A stretch of DNA of 64,000 nucleotides, taken from NCBI GenBank assembly GCA_001824825.1, contig MHTK01000005.1, positions 16,173-80,172 on the forward strand, in the 5' to 3' direction. Position 1 is the first letter of the stretch. Each line of letters starts with the position of its first letter. This document shows positions 11,901-56,566 of the stretch, piece by piece. The DNA is from Candidatus Vogelbacteria bacterium RIFOXYD1_FULL_46_19. GTDB lineage: Bacteria > Patescibacteriota > Minisyncoccia > Phycocordibacterales > XYD1-FULL-46-19. Below the pieces are notes generated by a model, which saw only the letters and a list, made by a program, of their open reading frames with translations, ran no database searches and was not told the DNA's origin. Made by a program: the position numbers and the translations under genes.

Positions 11901-12278
11901 GGGGATGATCGGCCTTGCCATTGATATGTTAGTTTATTCGTGCGTCCCGAGGGTGCTGGTCGCCTCGTAAATCACACCGGCAAAACTTAAGTGCAAAAAA
12001 CAGCACTGGTGCGGTGGTTTCACCGTACTCTCCAGCTTTCGCTTTAGCGTAATAAGCTGGTGTCGGACGAGCTTTTTCCTAACTGGCTCGCTCCCGGCAT
12101 AATAACCGTTGGGATAGGCAACTGGACTTGTTTCGCCCAGACGCCGAAACTTAGAAACTTTAACGCTTTGGGATTTTGCTCGTTTTATACCTAAAGCGTC
12201 GAGAACTTAAAACCAGCTACGGATGTAGACTCGCTTAAACCATATCTCTGCACGGGGGTTCGATTCCCCCCATCTCCA
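11901..12278 (+). ncRNA. ssrA: tmRNA (ssrA), standard one-piece; CCA not encoded
   Basis: The 5' acceptor GGGGAUG pairs with the 3' CAUCUCC, followed by discriminator A. The T-arm is GGGGG UUCGAUU CCCCC. An internal tag reading frame GCA AAA AAC … GCU UUA GCG UAA UAA (11993-12055) gives the tag AKNSTGAVVSPYSPAFALA with a double stop. The gene sits immediately downstream of smpB and is about 378 nt long. Confidence 0.85.
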
Positions 12279-12285
12279 CAATTAC

Positions 12286-12319
12286 AAAAATCGCTCACAT
12301 TTATATGTGAGCGATTTTT
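12286..12319 (+). terminator. Intrinsic terminator after ssrA (aaaaatcgctcacat ttat atgtgagcgattttt)
   Basis: A perfect 15-bp stem with a U-tract. It is embedded in a larger palindrome that includes the tmRNA acceptor 3' strand (catctccacaa / ttgtggagatg). Confidence 0.7.
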
Positions 12320-12321
12320 GT

Positions 12322-12560
12322 TTGTGGAGATGAGCAAAGCGCCTGCGCGCTTTGCGTGGGGGAATCGAAAAGGCTGAACATATCGCAGTGAGCCGAGCAC
12401 CAGAGAAGGCATTGGTGCTTGGCGAAACGAGATGTGAAGCCTGTACCGTTCATGTAATGAAAGATTCCCCGGCCGTGGGGGAATCGAAAGACCCCGCCCT
12501 GTGCACAGGGCGGGATTGGGGTAGAGAGATTACCATTGTCTCTACAAACAAAATGCCCTT
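12322..12560. other. Structured non-coding region downstream of ssrA containing two inverted (mirror) copies of the tmRNA 3' end
   Basis: 12324-12370 reads gtggagatg + [agcaaagcgcctgcgcgctttgcgt hairpin] + gggggaatcgaa. This equals the reverse complement of the tmRNA 3' end, gggggttcgattccccccatctccac, with a 23-nt perfect hairpin inserted at the T-stem/acceptor junction. A second copy, gtgggggaatcgaaa, is at 12475-12489. Further hairpins are cgccctgtgcacagggcg and gtagaga…tctctac. Confidence 0.6.
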
Positions 12561-24032: not shown

Positions 24033-24105
24033 GCGCGTGTAGCTCAGTTGGTAGAGCGCGGAGCTTATACCTCCGTGGTCCCAGGTTCGAGTCCTGGCAC
24101 GCGCA
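24033..24105 (+). tRNA. tRNA with anticodon UAU (reads AUA; Ile); CCA not encoded
   Basis: Cloverleaf: acceptor GCGCGUG/CACGCGC, D-arm GCUC-AGUUGGUA-GAGC, anticodon stem CGGAG/CUCCG with loop CUUAUAC (U33, A37), T-arm CCAGG-UUCGAGU-CCUGG, discriminator A. Confidence 0.8.
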
Positions 24106-24115
24106 CAAAATCTTA

Positions 24116-24150
24116 AGTCCTGAAGTGAAAGCTTCAGGACTTTTGATTTT
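24116..24150 (+). terminator. Intrinsic terminator after tRNA (agtcctgaag tgaaag cttcaggact tttgatttt)
   Basis: A perfect 10-bp stem followed by a U-tract. Confidence 0.65.
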
Positions 24151-24520
24151 GTAGCAGCGTGAGGGACTCGAAAGCCGGAGCCGGTATACAAGATTTTGAG
24201 GTAACGAAAAATGCTTGTCGGCGAGGCGGGGTAGCGACCTTCGTAGCGGAGATTTATCGAAGCAGAAGAGTTGTGACCGAGTCCTGGCACGCGCACCTGA
24301 ACAAAGTGAGGGTGAGAGTGTAGCAAGCCAACTGCTTGGCTTGCGTCAGGACTCGAAAGACTTTTCGTTACCGAGTATCTGATAAAGATAATCGGTCGAA
24401 AAGTACCCGCCCCCGTTGGGGGAGAGTCTTTACCTACGCGCACCCGAACAAAGTGAGGTAAGAGTGCCGCGCATCTTTGTGTTGTCATAGGTGTGATTAT
24501 GCGCACCAGAAAAAATATTC
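24151..24520. repeat. ~370-nt non-coding block composed of direct and inverted copies of the tRNA(UAU) 3' half
   Basis: A direct copy cgagtcctggcacgcgcac (24278-24296) is a 19/19 match to the tRNA at 24087-24105. A partial direct copy acgcgcacc is at 24436-24444. Mirror (reverse-complement) copies gcgtgagggactcgaaag (24157-24174) and gcgtcaggactcgaaag (24343-24359) are present. The block has internal degenerate tandem structure (cgcgcacc[t/c]gaacaaagtgagg[g/t][t/a]gagagtg occurs twice). The antisense 185-aa ORF here is judged spurious. Confidence 0.6.
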
Positions 24521-36662: not shown

Positions 36663-36804
36663 AAGTGGATTCGGAATGAAATTTTTCGTTCCCAAGCCGC
36701 CTGAGCAATCAGGCGGTTTTTTGGTTGGTGGGATTCTTTCATTACATGAACAGTATACCTTTGCGATTTTATCCCAGCCAAGCTGCTCGAAAATAACGCA
36801 AAGC

Positions 36805-36877
36805 TTTTCGAATCCCACCCGCGAGGCAAGCAGTTGCCTCGCTACCCTCCGCAGCTTTTTCACTGCGTTCAAAACTG
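36805..36877. other. Mirror copy of tRNA-Ser 3' end with 24-nt hairpin insertion, plus long palindrome overlapping tRNA acceptor end
   Basis: On the + strand, ttcgaatcccaccc + [gcgaggcaagcagttgcctcgcta] + ccctccg. This is an inverted duplicate of the tRNA-Ser 3' end (GGGTTCGAATCCCACACCCTCCG, minus strand) with a perfect hairpin inserted at the T-stem/acceptor junction. The palindrome ccctccgcag-c-tttt…aaaa-ctgcggaggg pairs the acceptor 3' strand with a downstream mimic. Confidence 0.55.
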
Positions 36878-36966
36878 CGGAGGGTGTGGGATTCGAACCC
36901 ACGAGGGGTTTTAAAGCCCCTACCTCGTTAGCAGTGAGGCGCTTTCGGCCACTCAGCCAACCCTCC
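36878..36966 (-). tRNA. tRNA-Ser (anticodon GCU), long variable arm; CCA not encoded
   Basis: Revcomp: GGAGGGT-UG-GCUG-AGUGGCCGAAAGC-GCCUCA-CUGCUAA-CGAGG + variable arm UAGGGGCUUUAAAACCCCUCG + T-arm GUGGG-UUCGAAU-CCCAC + ACCCUCC + G. Confidence 0.85.
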
Positions 36967-43366: not shown

Positions 43367-43595
43367 GCTAGAAAGATGGTGTTGAACGACAGATTGGTCG
43401 CTTGAACTGTGTGTAATTAACTAGCGACTGAGGCGGACTCATGCGATAATAAAAATAATTGGCATTAAATTGAAGTAATGGTTGCTGTTTTTACTTCGGT
43501 GACCACTTTCGGCTTAAAGTTTTGATAAGGACACAGCCTATCATCATCTTGACTCCTGCAGCAACTAGCTTAATAATCATCAATTTATTTAAAAA

Positions 43596-44660
43596 ATGGC
43601 TGAATACAAAAAACAATTAGACGACTTGGTACTGATTGTCACCAAAGAGGGTGCTTCTGACCTGCATATTACCGCGGGGATGCATCCGGTTATTCGGGTG
43701 GCGGGCGACCTGGTGCCCCTAGTGAACCAGTCGGTGCTTTCGGCCGACGATACGATGGGAATAGCGATGGAGCTTTTAAACGAGGCCAATAAAACTTTGT
43801 TTTTGAATAAAAAAGACGTTGACTTTTCCTACTCGCCCGATGGTCTAACCCGTTTCCGAGGCAATGCTTTTTTTCAGCGGGGCTTAGTGGGGGTGGCTCT
43901 CCGCCTTATTCCAACCCACGTCCAAACTTTAGCTGAGTTAAATCTTCCCGACATTTTGGCCGAGTTTACCCGCAAAGAACAGGGTTTTTTCTTGGTGGTG
44001 GGGCCGGTGGGTCAAGGTAAATCCACTACACTCGCAGCCATGGTGAATATGATCAACCAAGAGCGGGCCGAACATATTATTACCATTGAAGATCCGATCG
44101 AATACTTGTTTACCAATGAACGCTCTATTATCGACCAGCGTGAGGTGCGGTTTGATACCGACGATTTTCATTCCGCTTTGCAGTCGATGTTTCGCCAAGA
44201 TGTGAATGTGGGTATGATCGGGGAAATGCGTAATCCGGAAACCATTTCGACTGCGGTTACGGCGGCTGAAACCGGTCACTTGATTTTATCTACTTTGCAT
44301 ACCAACAGTGCCTCGCAAACCATCGACCGTATTATCGACTCCTTCCCACCCAATCAGCAAAGGCAAATTCGCATTCAGCTGGCCGGCTCCTTGATCGGGA
44401 TCTTTTCGCAGCGTCTGTTACCACGTGTTTCGGGCGGCTTAGTACCGGCTTATGAACTGCTGGTGGACAATAGCGCTGTCTCTAACCTGATTCGCGAAGG
44501 CCGAACGGCGGAAATAGATGTCTTGATTGAAACTGGTTCCGACCAGGGAATGATCGATTTAAACCGCTCTTTAGCCGAGCTAGTCCGCCAGGGAGAAATC
44601 ACCGCTGAAAGTGCCTATCGCTACAGTATGAATCCGAAAAGCCTTGATCGTTTGCTGTAA
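43596..44660 (+). CDS. pilT: Twitching motility / pilus retraction ATPase PilT
   Basis: Walker A (LVVGPVGQGKSTTLAAMVN) and a 354-aa PilT-size protein (…IITIEDPIEY…). Confidence 0.9.
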   Translation: MAEYKKQLDDLVLIVTKEGASDLHITAGMHPVIRVAGDLVPLVNQSVLSADDTMGIAMELLNEANKTLFLNKKDVDFSYSPDGLTRFRGNAFFQRGLVGVALRLIPTHVQTLAELNLPDILAEFTRKEQGFFLVVGPVGQGKSTTLAAMVNMINQERAEHIITIEDPIEYLFTNERSIIDQREVRFDTDDFHSALQSMFRQDVNVGMIGEMRNPETISTAVTAAETGHLILSTLHTNSASQTIDRIIDSFPPNQQRQIRIQLAGSLIGIFSQRLLPRVSGGLVPAYELLVDNSAVSNLIREGRTAEIDVLIETGSDQGMIDLNRSLAELVRQGEITAESAYRYSMNPKSLDRLL

Positions 44661-44677
44661 TATTTTTTTAAATCACT

Positions 44678-45886
44678 ATGCTTTTTAATTACGAAGCGAC
44701 CAATAAAATCGGCCAAGTCCAAGATGGCAGTATTGAAGCCTCTAATCTGGATACGGCGATTGTGGCCCTCCAGCGCCGAGGTTTGGTGGTCATTAGTATC
44801 GAAGAGGAGCGGCCGCCGGGCTTGTTTGGGGGGCGTTTTAACCTGGCTTTTAGCCGCGTGCGGTCGAGTGACGTAGTAATCTTGTCGCGTCAGATTGCGA
44901 CTTTGTTTGAAGCTAAAGTTTCTGTGATGTCGACTTTTCGCTTGATTGCCAGTGAAAGTCCGAACGCTATTCTGCAAAAGAAGCTGACGCAAGTGACTGA
45001 TGATATTAAAACCGGGGTGCCGATTTCGGCGGCACTGGCTCGCCATCCGGATGTTTTTTCCGACTTTTACGTTAGTATGGTGCGCTCGGGCGAGGAGTCG
45101 GGCAAGCTGTCGGAAACTTTCACTTATCTCGCTGATTATCTGGACCGGTCTTACGCTTTGGTCTCGAAAGCGCGCAATGCTCTCATCTATCCGGCCTTCG
45201 TCATTTTGTCTTTTATTGTGGTGATGATGCTGATGATGGTGTATGTCATTCCGCAACTGTCGGAAATTCTGGCTGAAACCGGCCAAGAATTACCTATTTA
45301 TACTAAAATTGTGGTGGGCTCCAGCCAGTTTATGGCTGACTATATTCTTTTGATGCTGGCCTTTCTCGTCGTCGTGGCCGCTTTTTTGGTGAAGTATTTA
45401 CCCACTACGGCTGGGCAAATGGCCTTGTCGCGATTTAAGCTGGCTATTCCTTATGTCGGTAGCTTATACCGCAAGCTATATTTGTCGCGGATTGCCGACA
45501 ACTTAAACACTCTCATCACTAGCGGCGTCTCGATGGTGCGGTCTCTCGAGATTACCTCCGAGGTGGTAGGTAATGAAGTGTATCGAGAAATTTTAGAGGA
45601 GACGGCTAACTTGGTGAAGTCGGGCAATGCTGTGTCGGCCGTCCTCTCGCGTTATGAAGAGGTGCCCAGCATTATGGTGCAGATGATCAAAGTGGGCGAG
45701 GAGTCGGGCAAGCTAACTTTCGTCTTGGGAACATTGTCTAAGTTCTACCAACGCGAAGTGGATAATGAGGTGGATACTCTGGTGGGCTTGATCGAGCCGG
45801 CGATGATCGTGCTTCTGGGTCTTGCCGTGGGTATTCTCCTAACCTCCGTTTTGGTGCCGATTTATGACGTGGCCGCCGGTTTCTAG
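44678..45886 (+). CDS. pilC: Type IV pilus platform protein PilC (GspF family)
   Basis: Two T2SS-F repeats, three TM helices, and a 402-aa length. Confidence 0.85.
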   Translation: MLFNYEATNKIGQVQDGSIEASNLDTAIVALQRRGLVVISIEEERPPGLFGGRFNLAFSRVRSSDVVILSRQIATLFEAKVSVMSTFRLIASESPNAILQKKLTQVTDDIKTGVPISAALARHPDVFSDFYVSMVRSGEESGKLSETFTYLADYLDRSYALVSKARNALIYPAFVILSFIVVMMLMMVYVIPQLSEILAETGQELPIYTKIVVGSSQFMADYILLMLAFLVVVAAFLVKYLPTTAGQMALSRFKLAIPYVGSLYRKLYLSRIADNLNTLITSGVSMVRSLEITSEVVGNEVYREILEETANLVKSGNAVSAVLSRYEEVPSIMVQMIKVGEESGKLTFVLGTLSKFYQREVDNEVDTLVGLIEPAMIVLLGLAVGILLTSVLVPIYDVAAGF

Positions 45887-46060
45887 TTCTAGTACGTTTA
45901 GGCTTCTCTTGAGAAGAGTCCTTAGAGAGTTATCCTCAAGTGATGATTGTGGCGGATGTTTGAGGTAGAGTATAATTAAAAGCATAAGCTTAAAGAGCAG
46001 GATTAGTCGTTATTATTATTTAATAGATATTGCGGCCAAAGTTTAGGTCGCCAAGAATTT

Positions 46061-46456
46061 ATGAAAAACAAAGGTTTTACCCTGATCGAACTGCTGGTGG
46101 TAATTGCTATCATTGGTATTTTGTCGGGGATTGTGATTACCGCCTTGTCGGGGGCACGAGATAAAGCAAGTGACGCTAAAATTAAAGCTACTTTGGCTGG
46201 ATTCCGCACTGCCGCCGAACTAGTTTATTCTGAGAGTGCAGCCCCAGGAAGTTATACGGGTGCTTGTACCGCCGGAAACGAATTTACCGGAGCTTATTTA
46301 GCTGATTTGTCGGTGAGCCAAGATTGTCAGGTCAATGGCTCAAGGTATTACATATCTGATGAATTAAATGATGAGACAATCTGGTGTGTTGATAGCAGTG
46401 GCTACTCAGGAGTTAAAAGTTCAGCCCCAGCTACGTCTCCTTGTACTAGCTTATAA
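46061..46456 (+). CDS. Type IV pilin (major pilin candidate 1)
   Basis: Prepilin leader and class III signal ([21 protein letters not shown]), followed by a C-terminal disulfide-containing globular domain. Confidence 0.85.
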
Positions 46457-46496
46457 TCAGTAATAACGTTTGAGTATATACTGAAAAAGTAAATTC

Positions 46497-46540
46497 CATC
46501 CACCTAAAAACCCGCCAGCTGGCGGGTTTTTAGGTGGATG
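46497..46540 (+). terminator. Long perfect palindrome/terminator (ccatccacctaaaaacccgcc agct ggcgggtttttaggtggatgg)
   Basis: A 20-bp perfect stem with an internal U-tract, located after pilin 1. Confidence 0.7.
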
Positions 46541-46605
46541 GGGAGATTGGGCTCAAGAGCGATTGGTGTTATGCTTTAGTTAACTTAACTCACATCAATT
46601 AGACA

Positions 46606-47007
46606 ATGAAACATAATAAAGGCTTCACCTTGATCGAACTGCTGGTGGTAATTGCTATCATTGGGATCTTGGCCAGCATTGTTTTGGTAAGCTTATCCGG
46701 AGCCCGGGTGCGGGCGCGGGATGCTGGCATCCGAGCGGACCTGGCCGGTTCGCGCATTGGCGCCGAGCTTTTTTACTCCACCACTGGCGGCAACACCTAC
46801 TATGGCCTATGCTCTAGCTTGCAATTGGCACCATATCTGGCCGGTAAAGGCGCCCCTGGGGTGAATTATGTTTGTGAGAGTAATGAGCAAAGCTATGTTA
46901 TAGGGGTCGCTTTATCATCTGGTTACTTTTGTGTAGACTCGCGTCGGGTGGTGGGTGATTATCTAGGACCGTTACCTGCTACTTTCCCAGGGTTTGTGTG
47001 CCCATAA
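46606..47007 (+). CDS. Type IV pilin (major pilin candidate 2)
   Basis: [34 protein letters not shown]…, with Cys pairs near the C-terminus. Confidence 0.85.
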   Translation: MKHNKGFTLIELLVVIAIIGILASIVLVSLSGARVRARDAGIRADLAGSRIGAELFYSTTGGNTYYGLCSSLQLAPYLAGKGAPGVNYVCESNEQSYVIGVALSSGYFCVDSRRVVGDYLGPLPATFPGFVCP

Positions 47008-47133
47008 GGTGGCAGGCGATGACACTTCTGATTGCTTTTTCTTAAACTAATGGTTGTGTGGATAAAGGCGGTAAGTCCGACCTCCTTTTTAGTGTTATGA
47101 TTAAAGAAATAACTAATCTAATGACCCACTTTT

Positions 47134-48702
47134 ATGTTTAAAAAAATTGGCTTGGGGGTGGCCCTGGTGGCTTTGGTCGTTTTAGCTTCCGTTTGGACAG
47201 TGAAAACTATTCCGGCGACCGAGGCTCAAACCGGCGGGGCCGAGCTCACTGGCTGGCTGTGGAGTTCCAATATTGGCTGGGTCAGTTTAAATTGCAGTAA
47301 TACTAGCGTTTGTGCCACGCGAAATTTTAAAGTGGTAAAAAATACGGACGATACTTTGTCTGGCTATGGCTGGAGTTCTAATGTGGGCTGGGTGAAGTTT
47401 AATCCGGCTGGGCCCTATCCGACCGGCGGTGCGACTAGTGCTCATAGCGCCAAATTTGTGGGCAGTGACGTGAAAGGCTGGGTACGTTTTTGCGGGCCGC
47501 TGGCGGCTGGCTGTGACAGTACTCTCTTAGGGGACCAAATCAGAGGTGGGTGGGACGGCTGGGTGAGCCTGTCGGGTACTTCGGCCACCAGCGGGGCCTA
47601 TGGGGTAAAATTTGATTCCCTGACCAAGCGGTTTTCCGGCTTCAGTTGGGGAGACTTGGTAGTGGGCTGGGCGGATTTTAGTTTAGCCGCTTGCGCTAAT
47701 TGTGTTATCACTGGTGATCCGGTTTTAACTATTAATATCGTAGGACTGGGGCGAGTGACTGATATGGATACTGATGACATTATCTTAATAGACTGCGATG
47801 AGTCTGATACTCTTTGTACTCAAAGTTATCCTGATGGTTCTTCTATTCGTTTGCTGGCCTATCCAGCTCCCGGGGAACAGCTTTTAGATTGGGAATGGGC
47901 ACCAGCTGGTGATGCGGATCCTTCTTGTGGCATTTTTAATCCCACAACAGGGGGTATGTGTGGAGCCGTTTATATGGATCGAGATCGGACAGTGACGGTT
48001 ACTTTTTCAGACTCGACATTAGCTGACGATGAACATCAGCTTAGAGTTGTGGTTGTTGGTACTGGTACGGTCACGGGAAGTGGGTTTAACTGTACAACTA
48101 GTTGTGTAAATACTTTTTCCGCCGAAGAAGCTGTGACTCTAAACGCTGATCCATCTGCCACTTGGACTAGTAGTCTAAGTGGTTTGTGCGACGAGGCAGA
48201 CACTGATTGTAACTTTAATATGCCAGATCAGGACACTACTATTACAGTAGATTTTACTGGCGGGGTTACGACGCCGACTGACTTGTTCTCCTTCCACGAA
48301 TGTGTGCGAGTTGGTGGTGGTGATCGCTGTGTTATGACGATTAACTGCGACATTATTGCGGACTGTTTACATGAAGCAGTCTTTTCTAACGCGGCTCAAA
48401 TCGTACCAAATGATCCAGCTCAAGTTATAAATTACCAAGTATTTTTCCCAAGTTCGATTGCTAATGGTAGAGGGGCGGGTTTCCAGTTTAAGCAATGTGA
48501 TAGTGCCGACAGTGAATCTTGCCCAACTTTAGTGCCAACGTCGGGCATTACCGGCTCTTACTATCTGAAAGTTTTTAAACCGATTGGTTCAGGTCTTGAG
48601 AGTTTTGACACTCAAGTAGGGGTAAAGGCTACAGCGGCGGGAATCACTGATCAGAAAATTGCCACTTTCCGCTTTATCTTTACTGGTGGGGTTCAAGACT
48701 AA
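47134..48702 (+). CDS. Large secreted repeat protein encoded inside the pilus operon (candidate pilus-associated adhesin)
   Basis: A signal peptide, then three ~45-aa Trp-rich repeats (GWLWSSNIGWVSLN / GYGWSSNVGWVKFN / GFSWGDLVVGWADFS), then a Cys-rich C-terminal region. It lies between the pilins and pilD. Confidence 0.55.
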   Translation: MFKKIGLGVALVALVVLASVWTVKTIPATEAQTGGAELTGWLWSSNIGWVSLNCSNTSVCATRNFKVVKNTDDTLSGYGWSSNVGWVKFNPAGPYPTGGATSAHSAKFVGSDVKGWVRFCGPLAAGCDSTLLGDQIRGGWDGWVSLSGTSATSGAYGVKFDSLTKRFSGFSWGDLVVGWADFSLAACANCVITGDPVLTINIVGLGRVTDMDTDDIILIDCDESDTLCTQSYPDGSSIRLLAYPAPGEQLLDWEWAPAGDADPSCGIFNPTTGGMCGAVYMDRDRTVTVTFSDSTLADDEHQLRVVVVGTGTVTGSGFNCTTSCVNTFSAEEAVTLNADPSATWTSSLSGLCDEADTDCNFNMPDQDTTITVDFTGGVTTPTDLFSFHECVRVGGGDRCVMTINCDIIADCLHEAVFSNAAQIVPNDPAQVINYQVFFPSSIANGRGAGFQFKQCDSADSESCPTLVPTSGITGSYYLKVFKPIGSGLESFDTQVGVKATAAGITDQKIATFRFIFTGGVQD

Positions 48703-48721
48703 ATCCTATTAAAATTTATTA

Positions 48722-49540
48722 ATGATTCCTATTATCTATTTGGTTTCAATTGGGGCGGGTCTCATAGTTGGGAGCTTTTTAAACGTGGTTGTTTTGCGTT
48801 TCAACACTGGCTGGACTTTGCAAGGACGATCTCGTTGCTTGTCTTGCAGTCATCAGCTTAGCTGGCTAGAGTTGGTACCGGTAGTCAGCTTTCTGTGGCA
48901 GCGTGGTCACTGTCGCCACTGCGGTAGCCAGATTTCCTCGCAATACATAACCGTGGAGCTGGTAACAGCGCTGGTGTTTGGTTTCATTGCTTGGCGGGCC
49001 GTTACCGATATTGGCCTGGAGTGGTTTGAACTGGTTCGAACAGTGGTGTGGACTTGGGCAGTGGCTTCGACTTTGGTGGTAATTGCCGCTTATGATTTGA
49101 AACATAAAATTATTCCCGACCAGTTGGTGTACCTATTTATGGCCTTGTCGGCCCTATCGGGGTTTGTCTTAAATTTTGATTTCGGCATAGCGGAAATTGT
49201 GTGGCTAGTGCACGGCCTTTACTCGGGCGGACTACTATTCTTGGCTTTTTGGGCCTTGTGGTACTTTTCCGCTGGTCGCTTGATGGGCTTTGGTGATGCG
49301 AAGTTGGTGTTTGGCTTGGGACTATGGCTAGGTTTAAAGGACGCTTTGATTGGCGTGATGCTCGCTTTTATTCTAGGGGCGGTGGTGGGGCTGGGGCTGA
49401 TTGCCCTTAGGCGGTCCAAAAATTTACCCAAGGGCTGGCGCTTGTTGTCGCTTAAGAGTGAAATTCCGTTTGCGCCGTTTTTAGTAACCGGGGCTTTTAT
49501 TAGTTTCATTTTAAACTTAGGCGATGTTCTGGCTGGCTAA
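48722..49540 (+). CDS. pilD: Prepilin peptidase PilD (A24 family)
   Basis: An N-terminal CxxC…CxxC (CLSCSHQLSW…CRHCGSQI) and a polytopic membrane domain with catalytic Asp motifs. Confidence 0.85.
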   Translation: MIPIIYLVSIGAGLIVGSFLNVVVLRFNTGWTLQGRSRCLSCSHQLSWLELVPVVSFLWQRGHCRHCGSQISSQYITVELVTALVFGFIAWRAVTDIGLEWFELVRTVVWTWAVASTLVVIAAYDLKHKIIPDQLVYLFMALSALSGFVLNFDFGIAEIVWLVHGLYSGGLLFLAFWALWYFSAGRLMGFGDAKLVFGLGLWLGLKDALIGVMLAFILGAVVGLGLIALRRSKNLPKGWRLLSLKSEIPFAPFLVTGAFISFILNLGDVLAG

Positions 49541-50147
49541 ACAACAACTAAAGCAAGGGGGTTTCACTTTGCTGGAAATGGTGGTGGTGGTCACGATCGT
49601 GATGATTATCACCGGGGTGGTTATTTCTTATGTGCCGGCTTTCCGTGACCGCTCGGGACTTGATTTGGTGGCACAGGAAATTGCGGTGAATGTGCGGGGG
49701 GCTCAGGTATTTGCCTCGGGGGGCAAAACCTTGGCGAGTGGAGTCATCTTTCCTAACGAACGGCCTAGTTATGGTATTCATTTCGATAAAACTGCCAATA
49801 CTTTTTCTTTATTTGCTAATGTGACTGATACGGGTAGCGACCAGTATTTTAATGCAGAAGAAGGTGGCGACTTGGTTCAAGAGACGAGGGAACTGAGTGG
49901 TTTGGTGTTCGACAGTTTGTGTGTAAATCGGGGAACGAGCGAAGAGGATTGCAATGGGGTTGAACTTGATATTACTTATACCAGACCGAGCTTGCAGGCC
50001 GCTATTTGTATCCGTCAAACAGGGGGCGAGTGGGAGTGTCAAAATAAGGATAGTGCCACGATTTTAATCAGATCGCCTCGTTCACAACAAGCCAAAGCGA
50101 TAACCGCTTATTTTAATGGACAAATTGGAGTTGATAATGAAAACTAA
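49524..50147 (+). CDS. Minor pilin / pseudopilin (GspH/FimT-like)
   Basis: GFTLLEMVVVVTIVMIITGV is a class III signal sequence. The protein is 207 aa. Confidence 0.7.
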   Translation: MFWLAKQQLKQGGFTLLEMVVVVTIVMIITGVVISYVPAFRDRSGLDLVAQEIAVNVRGAQVFASGGKTLASGVIFPNERPSYGIHFDKTANTFSLFANVTDTGSDQYFNAEEGGDLVQETRELSGLVFDSLCVNRGTSEEDCNGVELDITYTRPSLQAAICIRQTGGEWECQNKDSATILIRSPRSQQAKAITAYFNGQIGVDNEN

Positions 50148-50685
50148 ATTTTTACATAAGAGGAAGACGGCCGCTGGTTTTACCCTGATTGAGATGATGG
50201 TAGCGGTTTCGATTTTTGCCATTGTCGCTATGATTACCAGTGGCTCGTTTATAATAATGGCGGACTTATACCGCAAGGTGCAAACCAACAGGGCGGTTAT
50301 TGATAACTTAAATTTAGCGATGGATACCATGGCGCTACAAATTAGGGAGGGTCGAAATTATGATTTTAGCTGTAACGGGGGGGTCAGCTGTATTGCTTTT
50401 GATGAGTTGTCTATTGAAACTAATCAGTTAACTACTAATCGACATTTATTTTATAAGTTAGAAGATAGCCGTTTAGTTCAATGTGTTGGAACAGCTAGTC
50501 CGGCCGATTGCCAAGCTTTAACATCGCCAGAAATTACAGTTGATGGTTTGGAATTTTTTAGGGATGACTCTTTAGAGGTACCTCGAGTTACGGTTGTTCT
50601 AAGTGGAGTGGCTACTAGTAAAGTTGGTTTGAGTTCAGATTTTTTACTCCAAACTACCTTATCCCAGCGTAATTATCCTCGTTAA
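50137..50685 (+). CDS. Minor pilin (PilW/GspJ-like)
   Basis: MKTKFLHKRKTAAGFTLIEMMVAVSIFAIV; GGAG sits 9 nt upstream. Confidence 0.7.
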   Translation: MKTKFLHKRKTAAGFTLIEMMVAVSIFAIVAMITSGSFIIMADLYRKVQTNRAVIDNLNLAMDTMALQIREGRNYDFSCNGGVSCIAFDELSIETNQLTTNRHLFYKLEDSRLVQCVGTASPADCQALTSPEITVDGLEFFRDDSLEVPRVTVVLSGVATSKVGLSSDFLLQTTLSQRNYPR

Positions 50686-50688
50686 ATA

Positions 50689-51237
50689 ATGTCTCAGTCT
50701 AATTTACAATCAGGTTTTACTTTAATAGAAACGTTTGTGGCGGTTCTGATACTAGTGTTTGCTGTTATTGGACCACTCGGGCTCTTGTCGCGAGCTATTA
50801 ATGACGGCAATTACGCTAAAAATCAGGTCACAGCTTATTATTTGGCCCAAGAGGCGACGGAATTGATTATTAATCAACGTGATCAAAATTTAGCAGCGTC
50901 TGTTGACTGGCTAAATGATTTAGGGAATTGTGTGGGGGACGACTGTCAAATTGGATTAGATTTGAATCAACAACTAGATATTAGATCTTGTGATATTGAA
51001 GCTACTATAAGCAACTGCCTCTTATACATACAAGACGACCTTGGTCAGCAGCCATACTATACCCACACTAATACTGGCCGACCTGCCATTTTTAGGCGAA
51101 CAGCGACTATTAACGAGGACGAGGATTCAGCTTCCATTACCGTTAAGGTAGTGTGGGTAAATAAAACTAATCCGGTTGAGCTGGAACTAACTACTATAAT
51201 TTACAATCAAGGTATTCGAACGGTACCAACCCCTTAA
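50689..51237 (+). CDS. Minor pilin (PilV/GspI-like)
   Basis: MSQSNLQSGFTLIETFVAVLILVFAVIG. Confidence 0.7.
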   Translation: MSQSNLQSGFTLIETFVAVLILVFAVIGPLGLLSRAINDGNYAKNQVTAYYLAQEATELIINQRDQNLAASVDWLNDLGNCVGDDCQIGLDLNQQLDIRSCDIEATISNCLLYIQDDLGQQPYYTHTNTGRPAIFRRTATINEDEDSASITVKVVWVNKTNPVELELTTIIYNQGIRTVPTP

Positions 51238-51249
51238 CTAAAAAATTTA

Positions 51250-51747
51250 ATGACCACCATTAGAAAAAAACAATCAGGCTTTGTCATTCTTTACGCCGTT
51301 TTAGTGGCTGGGGTGATTTCTATCGGAGGTATCTTACTAGCCAATATTATTGTTAAACAGCTGATGTTGTCATCGGTGGGTAAGGAATCACGGTTGGCCT
51401 ATTACGCCGCTAATGCTGGTGATGAATGTGCTCGTTTTGGTAACGCTCAATACGCTTTTGGTGGATTTCAAGTTGATTTGAATGATGATTTGGTCTATGA
51501 GCAAGGTGATATTGGCTTGTTGACTTGCGGGACGGCGGTTAGTGGCCCTACAAATGTGGCCCCAGGGGTTATAGGTTTTGAATTTGAAGTCGAGTCAGTA
51601 GGTGGAAACCAAGGGGCGACCGTCAGAGCTCTTTTGTCTGAAAGTAATCCACTAGTAGTTGAGGCAACAGGTTATAATATTAAAGATCCTAAACACCCGC
51701 GCCGGGTGGAAATAGTAATTGTTCGGTCTAGCAGCAGCGGGGACTAG
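51250..51747 (+). CDS. PilX-like minor pilin/pilus assembly protein
   Basis: The N-terminus …KQSGFVILYAVLVAGVISIGGILLA is PilX_N-like rather than a canonical prepilin signal. Confidence 0.55.
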   Translation: MTTIRKKQSGFVILYAVLVAGVISIGGILLANIIVKQLMLSSVGKESRLAYYAANAGDECARFGNAQYAFGGFQVDLNDDLVYEQGDIGLLTCGTAVSGPTNVAPGVIGFEFEVESVGGNQGATVRALLSESNPLVVEATGYNIKDPKHPRRVEIVIVRSSSSGD

Positions 51748-56459: not shown

Positions 56460-56465
56460 GCAAAT

Positions 56466-56488
56466 AAAGCCCCTGCTGGGGCTTTTTG
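56466..56488 (+). terminator. Intrinsic terminator after tRNA cluster (aaagcccc tgct ggggcttttt)
   Basis: A stem followed by a U-tract. Confidence 0.6.
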
Positions 56489-56566
56489 CTTGGCGGTCGG
56501 AAAAACTGGACTGCTCCAATTTTTGATAGTATAACCAACCGCCGGCCCTTGAGGGCTGGTGGTTGG

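What the first reader, a model, noticed from the sequence alone, without database searches (positions are those of the whole stretch)
11901..12560. Standard tmRNA followed by inverted copies of its own 3' end carrying a perfect hairpin insertion
The ssrA gene is a conventional one-piece tmRNA, as described in the feature list.

Immediately downstream, on the same strand, lies gtggagatg + a 23-nt perfect hairpin (agcaaagcgc ctg cgcgctttgc) + gggggaatcgaa. This is the exact reverse complement of the tmRNA's last ~25 nt, with the hairpin inserted precisely at the T-stem/acceptor junction. A second gtgggggaatcgaaa copy lies 118 nt further on.

Together with the terminator palindrome, which itself includes the acceptor 3' strand, these segments could pair extensively with the tmRNA 3' end in a read-through transcript. 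Equivalently, the opposite strand carries a pseudo tmRNA 3' end.

This is not the direct-repeat scar expected from integrase-mediated insertion at ssrA. The same architecture recurs at tRNA-Ser and tRNA(UAU) in this window. That recurrence suggests a systematic, undescribed feature, either in tRNA-like 3'-end processing or regulation, or of a mobile element family that targets tRNA-like 3' ends.
Basis: seen in the sequence. Interest (0 to 1): 0.7.

Follow-up and report, generated by a model that had tools for sequence, protein, structure and literature searches.

The report
Mini mobile elements in tRNA genes
The odd sequence after the tmRNA gene is one copy of a widespread, apparently undescribed family of tiny non-coding, hairpin-rich insertions that sit in the T-loop of tRNA and tmRNA genes of Patescibacteria (CPR), keep the gene intact by supplying a new 3' end, and carry an inverted copy of their target.

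Summary
After a normal tmRNA (11901-12279) come a terminator palindrome, an exact inverted copy of the tmRNA 3' end split by a perfect hairpin, and a second inverted T-arm copy.

It is not a tmRNA peculiarity. The same ~130-nt module (P1 hairpin, inverted T-arm, P3, P4) follows tRNA-Ser(GCU) and tRNA-Ile(UAU) in the window. It also follows at least 26 tRNA species plus tmRNA in more than 150 Patescibacteria loci, always downstream and on the same strand.

Each module ends with a copy of the gene's 3' end starting at T-loop G57. This copy is 8 nt here and up to about 20 nt elsewhere.

The units form tandem arrays, are absent from syntenic tRNAs in related genomes, and near-identical cores sit at different tRNAs. 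They are therefore insertions, not host tRNA-processing signals.

All helices covary strongly, with very few G:U pairs. No recombinase lies nearby and no Rfam family matches.

Related coding elements with the same T-loop-to-3'-end duplication encode a roughly 78-aa GIY-YIG nuclease. That makes it a candidate mobilising enzyme, but this is inferred, not shown.

Verdict: a real, widespread, apparently undescribed family of miniature tRNA-gene-targeting elements. Its mechanism is unresolved.

The parts
11901..12279 (+). tmRNA gene (ssrA), intact. Its last 19 nt (12262-12280, from T-loop G57 to the end) are segment 'S', the functional 3' end that abuts the insertion.
   Evidence: ARAGORN; Rfam RF00023 128.5 bits; smpB upstream
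12284..12321 (+). Terminator-like perfect palindrome (17-bp arms, 4-nt loop). It forms the tip of the long S/R hairpin.
   Evidence: I1, I4; folds
12322..12332 (+). R_acc: inverted copy of the acceptor 3' strand, discriminator and flank (reverse complement of 12271-12281, 11/11).
   Evidence: (I4)
12334..12355 (+). P1 hairpin (9 bp plus 4-nt loop) that splits the inverted copy. Its structure is conserved across the family but its sequence is not.
   Evidence: I17; 50/50 distinct sequences, 414 of 419 pairs Watson-Crick; helix 1: 97.5% paired, all 9 pairs covary
12356..12369 (+). RT: inverted copy of T-stem 3' strand plus T-loop (GGGGGAATCGAA is the reverse complement of 12259-12270), followed by the conserved AAAG.
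   Evidence: I9; helix 2
12372..12441 (+). P3 long hairpin. Its sequence and length vary across the family while its base pairs covary.
   Evidence: helices 3-5
12442..12463 (+). Conserved right end: TGTACC plus the P4 hairpin GTTCATGTAATGAAAG (stem TTCAT/ATGAA). Across the family the (T)GTA(A) loop is conserved and the stem covaries.
   Evidence: helix 6: 98.8% paired
12463..12470 (+). D1: direct repeat GATTCCCC of the tmRNA T-loop and T-stem 3' strand (matches 12262-12269). It marks the right border of unit 1 and pairs with RT as helix P2.
   Evidence: family-wide
12474..12547 (+). Older, 5'-truncated second unit. It comprises a second inverted T-arm CGTGGGGGAATCGAAA (12474-12489), a hairpin at 12491-12516, and a decayed direct copy of the tmRNA 3' end, GATTACCATTGTCTCTACAA (12528-12547, 14/20 in register).
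   Evidence: D1, I10, I11; sequence; analogous truncated arrays in L041, L030, L032
36727..36894 (-). The same element at tRNA-Ser(GCU) (gene at 36877-36966). Segments: S 36894-36877, R_acc 36854-36844, P1 36842-36821, RT 36820-36807, P3 36804-36758, P4 36751-36736, D GAATCCCAC(C) 36736-36727.
   Evidence: CM hit 133.7 bits
24107..24443 (+). Two tandem units at tRNA-Ile(UAU) (gene at 24033-24106). C1 (about 24150-24278) has a different core class (T3) and ends in a full 18-nt direct repeat, GAGTCCTGGCACGCGCAC, at 24279-24296. C2 (24322-24432) belongs to the same family as A and B but has a CCCCC/GGGGG P4 stem, and is followed by the remnant ACGCGCAC at 24436-24443.
   Evidence: CM hit 65.3 bits

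Best explanation
The region is a tandem pair of miniature, non-coding mobile insertions in the 3' part of the ssrA gene. One is complete and one is truncated. They belong to a family that colonises the T-loop-to-3'-end segment of tRNA and tmRNA genes in Patescibacteria.

Layout of each unit: [functional gene 3' end S] - own terminator hairpin - R_acc - P1 - RT - P3 - GTACY - P4 - [displaced or duplicated copy D of the gene from G57 to its end]. The gene therefore stays intact while the old 3' end is pushed downstream. Repeated hits build arrays.

R_acc and RT together are an inverted copy of the target. In a single strand they pair with S (or with D), forming a long hairpin with the terminator at its tip and P1 as a side branch.

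Shown here:
- the anatomy;
- covariation of all helices;
- the direct and inverted repeats matching each local tRNA;
- the arrays;
- patchy occupancy;
- the same core at different tRNAs;
- the absence of any nearby enzyme gene.

Inferred:
- The elements are non-autonomous and are moved in trans.
- The best candidate enzyme is the roughly 78-aa stand-alone GIY-YIG nuclease. It is encoded by related elements that sit 80-140 nt downstream of tRNA or tmRNA genes and, in L245, show the same 17-nt T-loop-to-end duplication.
- Insertion proceeds by breaks in the T-loop and at the gene's 3' end, which duplicates the segment between them.
- The inverted copy serves as a hairpin partner or splint for the target's 3' segment, and is kept complementary by intrastrand templated correction or by selection.
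For: Family and position:
- 52 genuine genome loci and 118 metagenome loci.
- The module lies downstream and on the same strand as a tRNA-like gene in 84 non-redundant cases covering 26 tRNA species, plus tmRNA.

Target matching:
- The direct copy of the locus's own tRNA has a median longest match of 12 nt, against 4 nt for other tRNAs.
- The inverted copy has a median of 11 nt against 6 nt.

Structure:
- The CM finds 134 copies in 661 kb.
- 92% of cells are paired, against 61% in shuffles and about 44% in slid controls. 39 of 40 pairs show double changes, and 0 of 500 shuffles reach the covariation score.
- P1 has 50 of 50 distinct sequences and 414 of 419 Watson-Crick pairs.
- The P4 stem varies under a conserved (T)GTA(A) loop.

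Insertional nature:
- Only 3 of 8 tRNA-like genes in the window are occupied.
- Tandem arrays occur in L030, L032, L041, L048, L054 and in window loci A and C.
- The syntenic tRNA-Tyr in L043 is empty, while L029, L030, L032 and L041 hold 1-3 units of different subtypes.
- Among pairs with at least 85% identical P3, 22 sit at different tRNA species and 4 at the same species.

Folding: S pairs with R, with z = -12.6 as RNA and -14.3 as DNA.

Non-autonomy: no recurrent enzyme gene appears in the flanks.

GIY-YIG link:
- The ORFs carry only PF01541.
- In 9 of 9 distinct looked-up loci the ORF lies just downstream of tmRNA, tRNA-Ala, tRNA-Ser or tRNA-Trp.
- In L245 the stop codon is followed by a 17-nt direct repeat of tRNA-Trp from A58.
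- In L041 and L168 a GIY-YIG ORF lies between a P1-like hairpin and a T1 right end.
Against: - No presence/absence polymorphism was found for the window's own ssrA locus. Nine contigs are 100% identical over it.
- No free or circular form was seen, and nothing was found in IMG/VR.
- The link to GIY-YIG is indirect. There is no GIY-YIG gene in the window. Only 2 of roughly 170 modules adjoin one. The CM finds no module in the 39 GIY-YIG look-up loci.
- How the inverted copy becomes matched to a new target is unexplained.
- The module's strand folds more stably than its complement in 42 of 50 cases, so an RNA-level role is not excluded.
Confidence: 0.68

Rival explanations
1. Scars of classical tyrosine-integrase elements (attL/attR remnants of islands or prophages that use the T-loop sublocation of tRNA/tmRNA genes), left after internal deletions.
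For: The direct repeat runs from the T-loop to the gene's 3' end with a regenerated gene, and tandem arrays occur at one tRNA. This is the textbook geometry of tRNA-gene islands (Islander, PMC4383910, seen). A few arrays hold small cargo genes (L054).
Against: No integrase-like gene recurs within about 4 kb in the 54 genome loci, and motif and ORF inspection finds none in the 64-kb window. There are no hits in viral contigs. The units are uniform at 150-250 bp, with conserved, covarying hairpins right up to the repeat, which random deletions would not produce. Near-identical cores sit at many different tRNAs, unlike a fixed attP.
Confidence: 0.1
2. A host-beneficial structured RNA or cis element. 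In this reading the module is transcribed with, or after, the tRNA/tmRNA and regulates 3'-end processing, stability or termination by pairing with the 3' half.
For: The module is always on the strand of the gene. Covariation is strong. The module strand is more stable than its complement in 42 of 50 cases. Read-through RNA would pair extensively with the tmRNA 3' end. At tRNA-Ser in the window there is no separate terminator between the gene and R.
Against: Only 3 of 8 genes in the window and about half in related loci are occupied, with different subtypes at orthologous tRNAs. Truncated and decayed copies accumulate in arrays. A terminator usually precedes R. The inverted copy matches the DNA flank, not the CCA-ended RNA. 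G:U pairs make up only about 1-2% of helix cells, against 9.8% in the neighbouring tRNAs. No Rfam family matches.
Confidence: 0.1
3. R_acc-P1-RT is a programmable nucleic-acid guide: two guide segments flanking a hairpin. It base-pairs with the tRNA-sense strand and directs a trans-acting nuclease or recombinase to the T-loop-to-3'-end segment. This would resemble in principle IS200/IS605 guide sequences, IS110 bridge RNAs or group II intron EBS/IBS pairing.
For: The two inverted segments always match the local target, including host-specific tRNA variants, while the core stays the same. The universal T-loop complement TCGAA could act as a seed. The candidate nuclease is a bare 78-aa catalytic domain with no DNA-binding domain.
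Against: In the GIY-YIG elements the inverted segment pairs with the tRNA end plus the element's own first nucleotides (for example GCGAAGTGGTGG against CCACCA|CTTCGC). That is the occupied junction, not a naive target. In many minis R_acc continues the palindrome through the element's own terminator flank. R_acc is absent in some apparently complete units (L055, L058, L071). No RNA or enzyme evidence exists.
Confidence: 0.12

Closest known systems
Genomic islands and prophages integrated in tRNA/tmRNA genes at the T-loop sublocation (tyrosine integrases; Islander/TIGER-type islands; CIME-like integrase-less derivatives)
   Same: The insertion regenerates the gene and leaves the displaced 3' fragment as a direct repeat that starts in the T-loop. 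Serial hits give tandem arrays. tmRNA and tRNA genes are both used.
   Different: The units are 150-250 bp with no integrase or cargo. They have a conserved set of covarying hairpins and an internal inverted copy of the target. The same core is found at more than 26 different tRNAs.
Free-standing or intron-borne GIY-YIG homing endonuclease elements (T4 Seg/I-TevI type; fungal mitochondrial GIY-YIG ORFs that bring a replacement gene end and displace the original)
   Same: They target highly conserved sites in essential genes. Related CPR elements encode a GIY-YIG domain and show a replaced-plus-displaced gene end (L245). ORF-less derivatives are expected for such elements.
   Different: The nuclease is only the roughly 78-aa catalytic domain with no DNA-binding domain. 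The window's units have no ORF at all. Nuclease activity and homing are untested. The inverted target copy has no counterpart.
Folded single-strand recombination sites: CTX-phi attP(+) (PMC3442271, seen) and integron attC (PMC4792948)
   Same: Two inverted copies of the target-like site, separated by a spacer, fold into a hairpin that mimics the duplex target and has a bulged or branched irregularity. The helices are almost purely Watson-Crick, as expected for DNA.
   Different: The target is a tRNA gene, not dif or attI. No Xer/IntI-type enzyme is implicated. The whole element is about 200 nt. The analogy is structural only.
MITEs / REPINs (non-autonomous hairpin-forming repeats moved in trans, for example by RAYT)
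   Same: Short and non-coding, with many copies per genome. They form hairpins, the enzyme is not adjacent, and they can supply terminators.
   Different: There are no terminal inverted repeats of the usual kind. The target is strictly one gene segment. The duplication is 17-20 nt rather than 2-10 nt. Internal sequence is adapted to each target.
Group I introns in the T-loop of tmRNA genes and in CPR tRNA genes (PMC13011429)
   Same: The T-loop of tmRNA is a known invasion point, and CPR tRNA genes are unusually rich in selfish insertions.
   Different: There is no match to RF00028. The unit is far too small. The gene is not interrupted, because a complete 3' end precedes the unit, so no splicing is needed.

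Membership tests
tmRNA (RF00023) | Covariance-model score above the gathering threshold, a tag reading frame ending in ALA-stop, and a tRNA-like acceptor/T-arm | tested here: met
   128.5 bits against gathering 47; tag AKNSTGAVVSPYSPAFALA**; smpB directly upstream
Integrase-mediated tRNA/tmRNA-gene island | Regenerated gene plus displaced 3' fragment as a direct repeat | tested here: met
   D1 at 12463-12470 and D2 at 12528-12547. Family-wide median is 12 nt against 4 nt in controls
Integrase-mediated tRNA/tmRNA-gene island | Tyrosine (or serine) integrase gene inside the element next to an att site | tested here: not met
   No recurrent recombinase in the 54 genome loci; none found in the window by motif and ORF inspection
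GIY-YIG homing-endonuclease element | GIY-YIG ORF within the inserted segment | tested here: not met
   No such ORF in the window's units or anywhere in the window. It is present only in related elements elsewhere
GIY-YIG homing-endonuclease element | The endonuclease cleaves the unoccupied target and the element is copied in by repair | not testable with these tools
   Needs purified protein with tDNA substrates, or genetic crosses
MITE | Short, non-coding, multi-copy, with terminal inverted repeats and a short fixed target-site duplication | tested here: inconclusive
   Short, non-coding and multi-copy: yes. No conventional terminal inverted repeats, and the duplication is 8-20 nt of a specific gene segment
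IS110 bridge RNA / IS1111 seekRNA | ncRNA with target- and donor-binding loops next to a DEDD/serine recombinase gene; guides pair with both DNA strands around a 2-nt core | tested here: not met
   No recombinase gene adjacent. Both inverted segments complement the same strand contiguously
Folded ssDNA att site (CTX-phi attP(+), integron attC) | Inverted target-like half-sites that fold into an imperfect hairpin used as a single-strand substrate by Xer/IntI | tested here: inconclusive
   Hairpin fold with a branch predicted at z = -14.3 as DNA. Helices are about 98% Watson-Crick. Enzyme and single-strand intermediate are untested
Group I intron (RF00028) | Match to the group I catalytic core, and the host gene is interrupted | tested here: not met
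   No Rfam hit even at E<=10; complete tmRNA and tRNA genes lie upstream of the units
Any Rfam 15 family for 12280-12560 | Score at or near the gathering threshold | tested here: not met
   Only sub-threshold miRNA-like hits on the terminator palindrome

The most novel reading that the evidence does not exclude
The split inverted copy (R_acc - P1 - RT) is a programmable nucleic-acid guide or splint. It captures the T-loop-to-3'-end strand of a tRNA gene and so gives target specificity to a minimal 78-aa GIY-YIG nuclease, or another trans-acting enzyme, that has no DNA-binding domain of its own. The universal T-loop complement acts as a seed, and the arms are rewritten to each new target by hairpin-templated correction. 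This would be a new class of guide-directed homing or transposition system.
Probability: 0.12. Interest if true: 0.95.

Novelty: new variant of a known kind. Interest (0 to 1): 0.74.

Why it matters
Patescibacteria have some of the smallest bacterial genomes. Even so, in the sampled loci about half of the tRNA-like genes carry one or more of these units.

The units replace the native 3' flank and terminator of essential RNA genes. They build arrays and dispersed repeats, which could plausibly drive rearrangements and assembly breaks.

They are also an unrecognised source of error in annotation: pseudo 3' ends, and 'islands' without integrases.

Because they are tiny, structured and fitted to each target, they offer a tractable system for asking how a selfish element recognises and safely invades an essential gene.

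If the minimal GIY-YIG domain proves to be the enzyme, and especially if its specificity comes from the element's own nucleic acid, that would be of mechanistic and possibly biotechnological interest.

Tried and rejected
- **Bare P4 17-mer in viral contigs.** This gave 28 hits, all coding or chance matches. Later patterns were therefore anchored. Anchored and extended patterns found nothing in viral contigs.
- **Rfam at permissive E-values on all three window loci.** No meaningful family came up. Hammerhead, twister and similar ribozymes, T-box, Y RNA and group I introns are therefore not supported.
- **MAFFT plus RNAalifold on 50 modules.** This recovered only P4, because the stems were out of register. 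I replaced it with a hand-structured seed, a CM and a CM-based alignment.
- **Neighbour-gene clustering and recombinase motif search.** No recurrent enzyme was found.
- **Exact SmpB look-up for occupied versus empty alleles.** All contigs were identical.
- **tRNA duplicate with a replaced body.** I considered that the inverted copy might be a direct copy of the tRNA 5' acceptor and T-stem 5' strands. This is rejected. It has A opposite the U of the tmRNA G3:U70 pair, carries the reverse-complemented T-loop, and extends into the 3' flank.
- **Retrovirus-like primer-binding site.** Rejected because the copy lacks the complement of CCA where CCA is not gene-encoded.
- **TIGR/bridge-RNA relationship.** Only a loose formal resemblance.
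- **GIY-YIG ORF as a regular part of T1 units.** Only two juxtapositions exist (L041, L168), and the CM finds no module in the GIY-YIG look-up loci. The link is kept as a hypothesis only.
Full report
**1. Checking the observation**

The tmRNA gene is conventional. ARAGORN places it at 11901-12279 with the tag AKNSTGAVVSPYSPAFALA. Rfam RF00023 scores 128.5 bits. smpB lies directly upstream.

- A perfect terminator palindrome at 12284-12321.
- ttgtggagatg at 12322-12332, the reverse complement of 12271-12281.
- A 9-bp perfect hairpin, P1, at 12334-12355.
- GGGGGAATCGAA at 12358-12369, the reverse complement of T-loop plus T-stem 3' strand (12259-12270).
- An identical 16-mer 119 nt further on, at 12474-12489.

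The inverted acceptor copy includes the discriminator and 2-3 flanking bases and lacks the complement of CCA. It therefore mirrors the DNA, not the mature RNA.

**2. The same thing elsewhere in the window**

Downstream of tRNA-Ser(GCU), on the minus strand, the same order of parts occurs with every target-related segment changed to match tRNA-Ser. It shares an identical 17-mer, GTTCATGTAATGAAAGA. Both copies fold into the same three-way junction.

Downstream of tRNA-Ile(UAU) there are two further units.

A covariance model built later scores these three window loci:

| Locus | Coordinates | Bits |
|---|---|---|
| tRNA-Ser unit | 36728-36843 (-) | 133.7 |
| tmRNA unit | 12333-12471 (+) | 81.4 |
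| second tRNA-Ile unit | 24322-24432 (+) | 65.3 |

The other five tRNA genes in the window have no unit.

**3. Relatives elsewhere**

An anchored pattern found 54 loci in the species-representative genome collection. Of these, 52 are genuine. All come from Patescibacteria/CPR MAGs, or from short contigs binned elsewhere.

The right-end motif found 118 or more metagenome loci.

ARAGORN shows the module always lies 90-330 nt downstream of a tRNA-like gene on the same strand. There are 84 non-redundant cases covering 26 tRNA species, plus tmRNA.

Nothing was found in viral contigs, and no Rfam family matches any of the three window loci.

**4. Anatomy of a unit**

Comparing loci gives this general layout:

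gene 3' end (S) | terminator hairpin | R_acc (inverted acceptor 3' strand, usually continuing the palindrome through the terminator flanks) | P1 hairpin | RT (inverted T-stem 3' strand plus T-loop, ending TCGAAA[A/G]) | P3 long hairpin | GTAC[C/T] | P4 hairpin with a (T)GTA(A) loop | AG(A) | D

D is a direct copy of the gene from T-loop G57 to its 3' end.
- In the window D is short: GATTCCCC at 12463-12470 and GAATCCCAC(C) at 36736-36727.
- In many loci it is 15-20 nt.

The longest exact match to the locus's own tRNA has a median of 12 nt for D, against 4 nt with other tRNAs. For the inverted copy the figures are 11 nt against 6 nt.

On the CM-based alignment of 134 copies:
- 92.0% of cells form pairs, against 61.1% in column shuffles and about 44% with slid partners.
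- 39 of 40 pairs show changes on both sides.
- No shuffle out of 500 reaches the covariation score.
- P1 is 97.5% paired, and 50 of 50 sequences are distinct.
- P4 is 98.8% paired with several different stems.

This alignment is fitted to the model, so the counts lean towards the structure. The slid-partner control and the independent per-sequence analysis agree with it.

G:U pairs are rare. They make up about 1-2% of cells in P1, P3 and P4 and 2 of 419 pairs in P1. In MFE folds the modules have 4.2% G:U, against 9.8% for neighbouring tRNAs. The module strand is nevertheless somewhat more stable than its complement, in 42 of 50 cases.

Folded as a single strand together with the tmRNA 3' end, S pairs with R_acc plus RT. 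The terminator sits at the tip and P1 forms a branch. The z-scores are -12.6 as RNA and -14.3 as DNA.

**5. Why these are insertions**

- Occupancy is patchy. Three of 8 genes in the window are occupied. In the wider set, 44 of 76 tRNA-like genes have an inverted copy of at least 9 nt downstream, against 3 of 74 upstream.
- Orthologous, syntenic tRNAs differ. tRNA-Tyr is empty in L043 but carries one to three units of different subtypes in L029, L030, L032 and L041. tRNA-Ser(GCU) next to recG carries a different P3 subtype in each relative of the window.
- Units stack in tandem. Each older unit begins with the previous D followed by its own terminator and inverted copy (L030, L032, L048). Older units are often truncated across the palindrome, as in L041 and in the window at 12471-12474.
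- Cores move between targets. Among module pairs with at least 85% identical P3, 22 sit at different tRNA species and only 4 at the same one.

On this reading the window's ssrA locus holds two units:
- A complete unit from 12280 to 12470.
- An older, 5'-truncated unit from 12474 to 12547. It ends in GATTACCATTGTCTCTACAA, which matches the tmRNA 3' end at 14 of 20 positions, in register from G57.

At tRNA-Ile, a unit with a different core (class T3, also seen at seven other tRNAs) ends in a perfect 18-nt repeat at 24279-24296. It is followed by a unit of the main family.

**6. The missing enzyme**

No protein family recurs next to the modules. The window encodes only housekeeping genes. The units are therefore non-autonomous.

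A lead came from right ends that lack the usual left half. In L168/L190 (a tmRNA locus) and in L041 (tRNA-Trp), an approximately 80-aa ORF lies between a P1-like hairpin and the P3-3'arm/P4/D right end. The ORF is a bare GIY-YIG catalytic domain, PF01541.

Homologues number in the thousands. Nearly all are about 78-80 aa and come from Patescibacteria, often on short contigs.

In all 9 distinct loci examined, the ORF starts 80-140 nt downstream of a tRNA-like gene on the same strand. The genes are tmRNA (three lineages), tRNA-Ala, tRNA-Ser(GGA), tRNA-Ser(GCU) and tRNA-Trp.

These ORFs sit behind a conserved leader made of hairpins. The leader contains an inverted copy of the gene's last bases plus the element's first bases. 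For example, GCGAAGTGGTGG is the inverse of CCACCA|CTTCGC.

In L245 the stop codon is followed at once by a 17-nt direct repeat of tRNA-Trp from A58 to its end, and then by the host terminator. Decayed equivalents occur in L218 and L214.

So coding elements with the same insertion geometry exist.

The link to the non-coding units remains indirect:
- The CM finds no module in the 39 GIY-YIG look-up loci.
- Only two juxtapositions are known.
- No GIY-YIG gene lies in the window.

**7. Mechanism**

Shown:
- The units are insertions that leave a complete gene on their left and a copy of its T-loop-to-3'-end segment on their right.
- They bring their own terminator.
- They contain a target-matched inverted copy and three to four helices conserved by structure.

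Inferred, as the best-supported reading:
- The units are moved in trans, possibly by the small GIY-YIG nuclease.
- Breaks in the T-loop (56/57) and just past the gene's 3' end, or a break plus template switching at the T-loop, would duplicate the intervening 17-20 nt. That would explain why S and D are target-derived even when the cores are near-identical.
- The inverted copy acts as hairpin partner or splint for that segment. It is kept complementary either by selection or by intrastrand templated correction, which would also explain the almost purely Watson-Crick, rapidly changing stems.

Rivals:
- Integrase scars. The geometry fits, but there is no integrase, the units are uniform and tiny, and the cores move between tRNAs.
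- A host RNA that modulates 3' processing. Strand and covariation fit. Patchiness, arrays, terminators, matching to the DNA flank and low G:U argue against it.
- A genuinely programmable guide. This is attractive because the candidate enzyme has no DNA-binding domain. It is weakened because, in the coding elements and in many minis, the inverted segment pairs with the occupied junction and the element's own flank, and because R_acc is absent from some complete units.

**8. Comparison with known systems**

The closest known kinds are:
- T-loop-class tRNA/tmRNA-gene islands, which share the repeat geometry and arrays.
- GIY-YIG homing elements that replace and displace a gene end.
- Folded single-strand att sites of CTX-phi and integrons, which share the hairpin made from inverted target-like copies.
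- MITEs and REPINs, which share the small, non-autonomous, hairpin-forming character.

None has the full combination seen here. Defining features of each were tested and several are not met; see the membership table.

Full-text searches found no description of these units. The recent survey of CPR tRNA introns concerns group I introns at position 35/36 only (PMC13011429). The paper library is incomplete, so prior description cannot be excluded.

**9. Verdict**

It is a widespread family of miniature tRNA/tmRNA-gene-targeting elements in Patescibacteria, with a distinctive split inverted copy of the target.

I rate it a new variant of a known kind (site-specific selfish insertions that regenerate tRNA genes), with high interest. 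The main open questions are the enzyme, the nature of the intermediate (DNA or RNA), and how the inverted copy is re-matched to new targets.

Noticed in passing
L185:1000-1600 (metagenome contig JACCDM-type locus fetched): This is a different GIY-YIG element class. A 5' fragment of tRNA-Ser, broken in the anticodon loop, is followed by the palindromic repeat CCCGCCCAAGGCGGGTCCGCCTTGGGCGG, a GIY-YIG ORF and then a complete tRNA-Ser(UGA). A second, similarly interrupted tRNA-Ser 3' part follows. It looks like anticodon-loop insertion with duplication of the 5' part.
   Followed up: partly
L214:686-943, L218:605-889, L235:666-911, L168 (second ORF): A second small GIY-YIG gene lies immediately upstream of the tmRNA or tRNA-Leu gene. 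The arrangements are SmpB-GIY-ssrA-GIY, and GIY 3 nt before tRNA-Leu. Some RNA genes are therefore flanked by GIY-YIG genes on both sides.
   Followed up: no
window 24150-24296; L029, L042, L048, L053, L067, L078: A distinct core class (T3) was seen: RT-GAAAG-NCGGAGC-hairpin-CGNGAGNCNGGG-hairpin-(T)GACC, followed by the direct repeat. It has the same insertion logic but an unrelated core, and it has neither been modelled nor searched for.
   Followed up: partly
L054:1-2850 (minus strand): An array of about 2.6 kb downstream of tRNA-Asn holds four direct-repeat remnants. Between the element right ends are small cargo ORFs: 125 aa, a 172-aa protein that looked NYN/LabA-like by eye, and a 212-aa membrane protein. 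Some units may therefore carry cargo.
   Followed up: no
window 56462-56520: Downstream of tRNA-Asp and its terminator there is a 7-nt inverted copy of the acceptor end (GCGGTCG) followed by GAAAAAC. It could be a decayed remnant of a unit or a chance match.
   Followed up: no
L175/L183, L053, L138, L166: Orphan left ends of the form (G)TTCGAAC-N-TCCTCTAC-(acceptor-like 3' strand) lie directly after protein-coding genes, with no tRNA 5' part nearby. They are followed by a terminator and a normal module whose inverted copy matches D rather than this upstream copy. The origin is unexplained; one possibility is rearrangement between dispersed modules.
   Followed up: no
L087 (contig end) = window 12276: One short-read contig of the same population ends exactly at the tmRNA 3' end, where the long palindrome begins. 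This suggests that these units break assemblies.
   Followed up: no
L056, L065, L080: Module-bearing contigs are labelled as Nitrospira or Patiriisocius MAGs. However, L065 carries CPR-type features: tRNA-Ile(UAU) and recG synteny with the window. These contigs are probably mis-binned.
   Followed up: no
window 43593-51747: ORF translations here begin with prepilin-type leader motifs (...[10 protein letters not shown]...) and lie next to larger ORFs that look like pilus-assembly genes by eye. This probable type IV pilus / pseudopilin cluster was not checked with Pfam. It may matter for DNA uptake as a route of spread.
   Followed up: no
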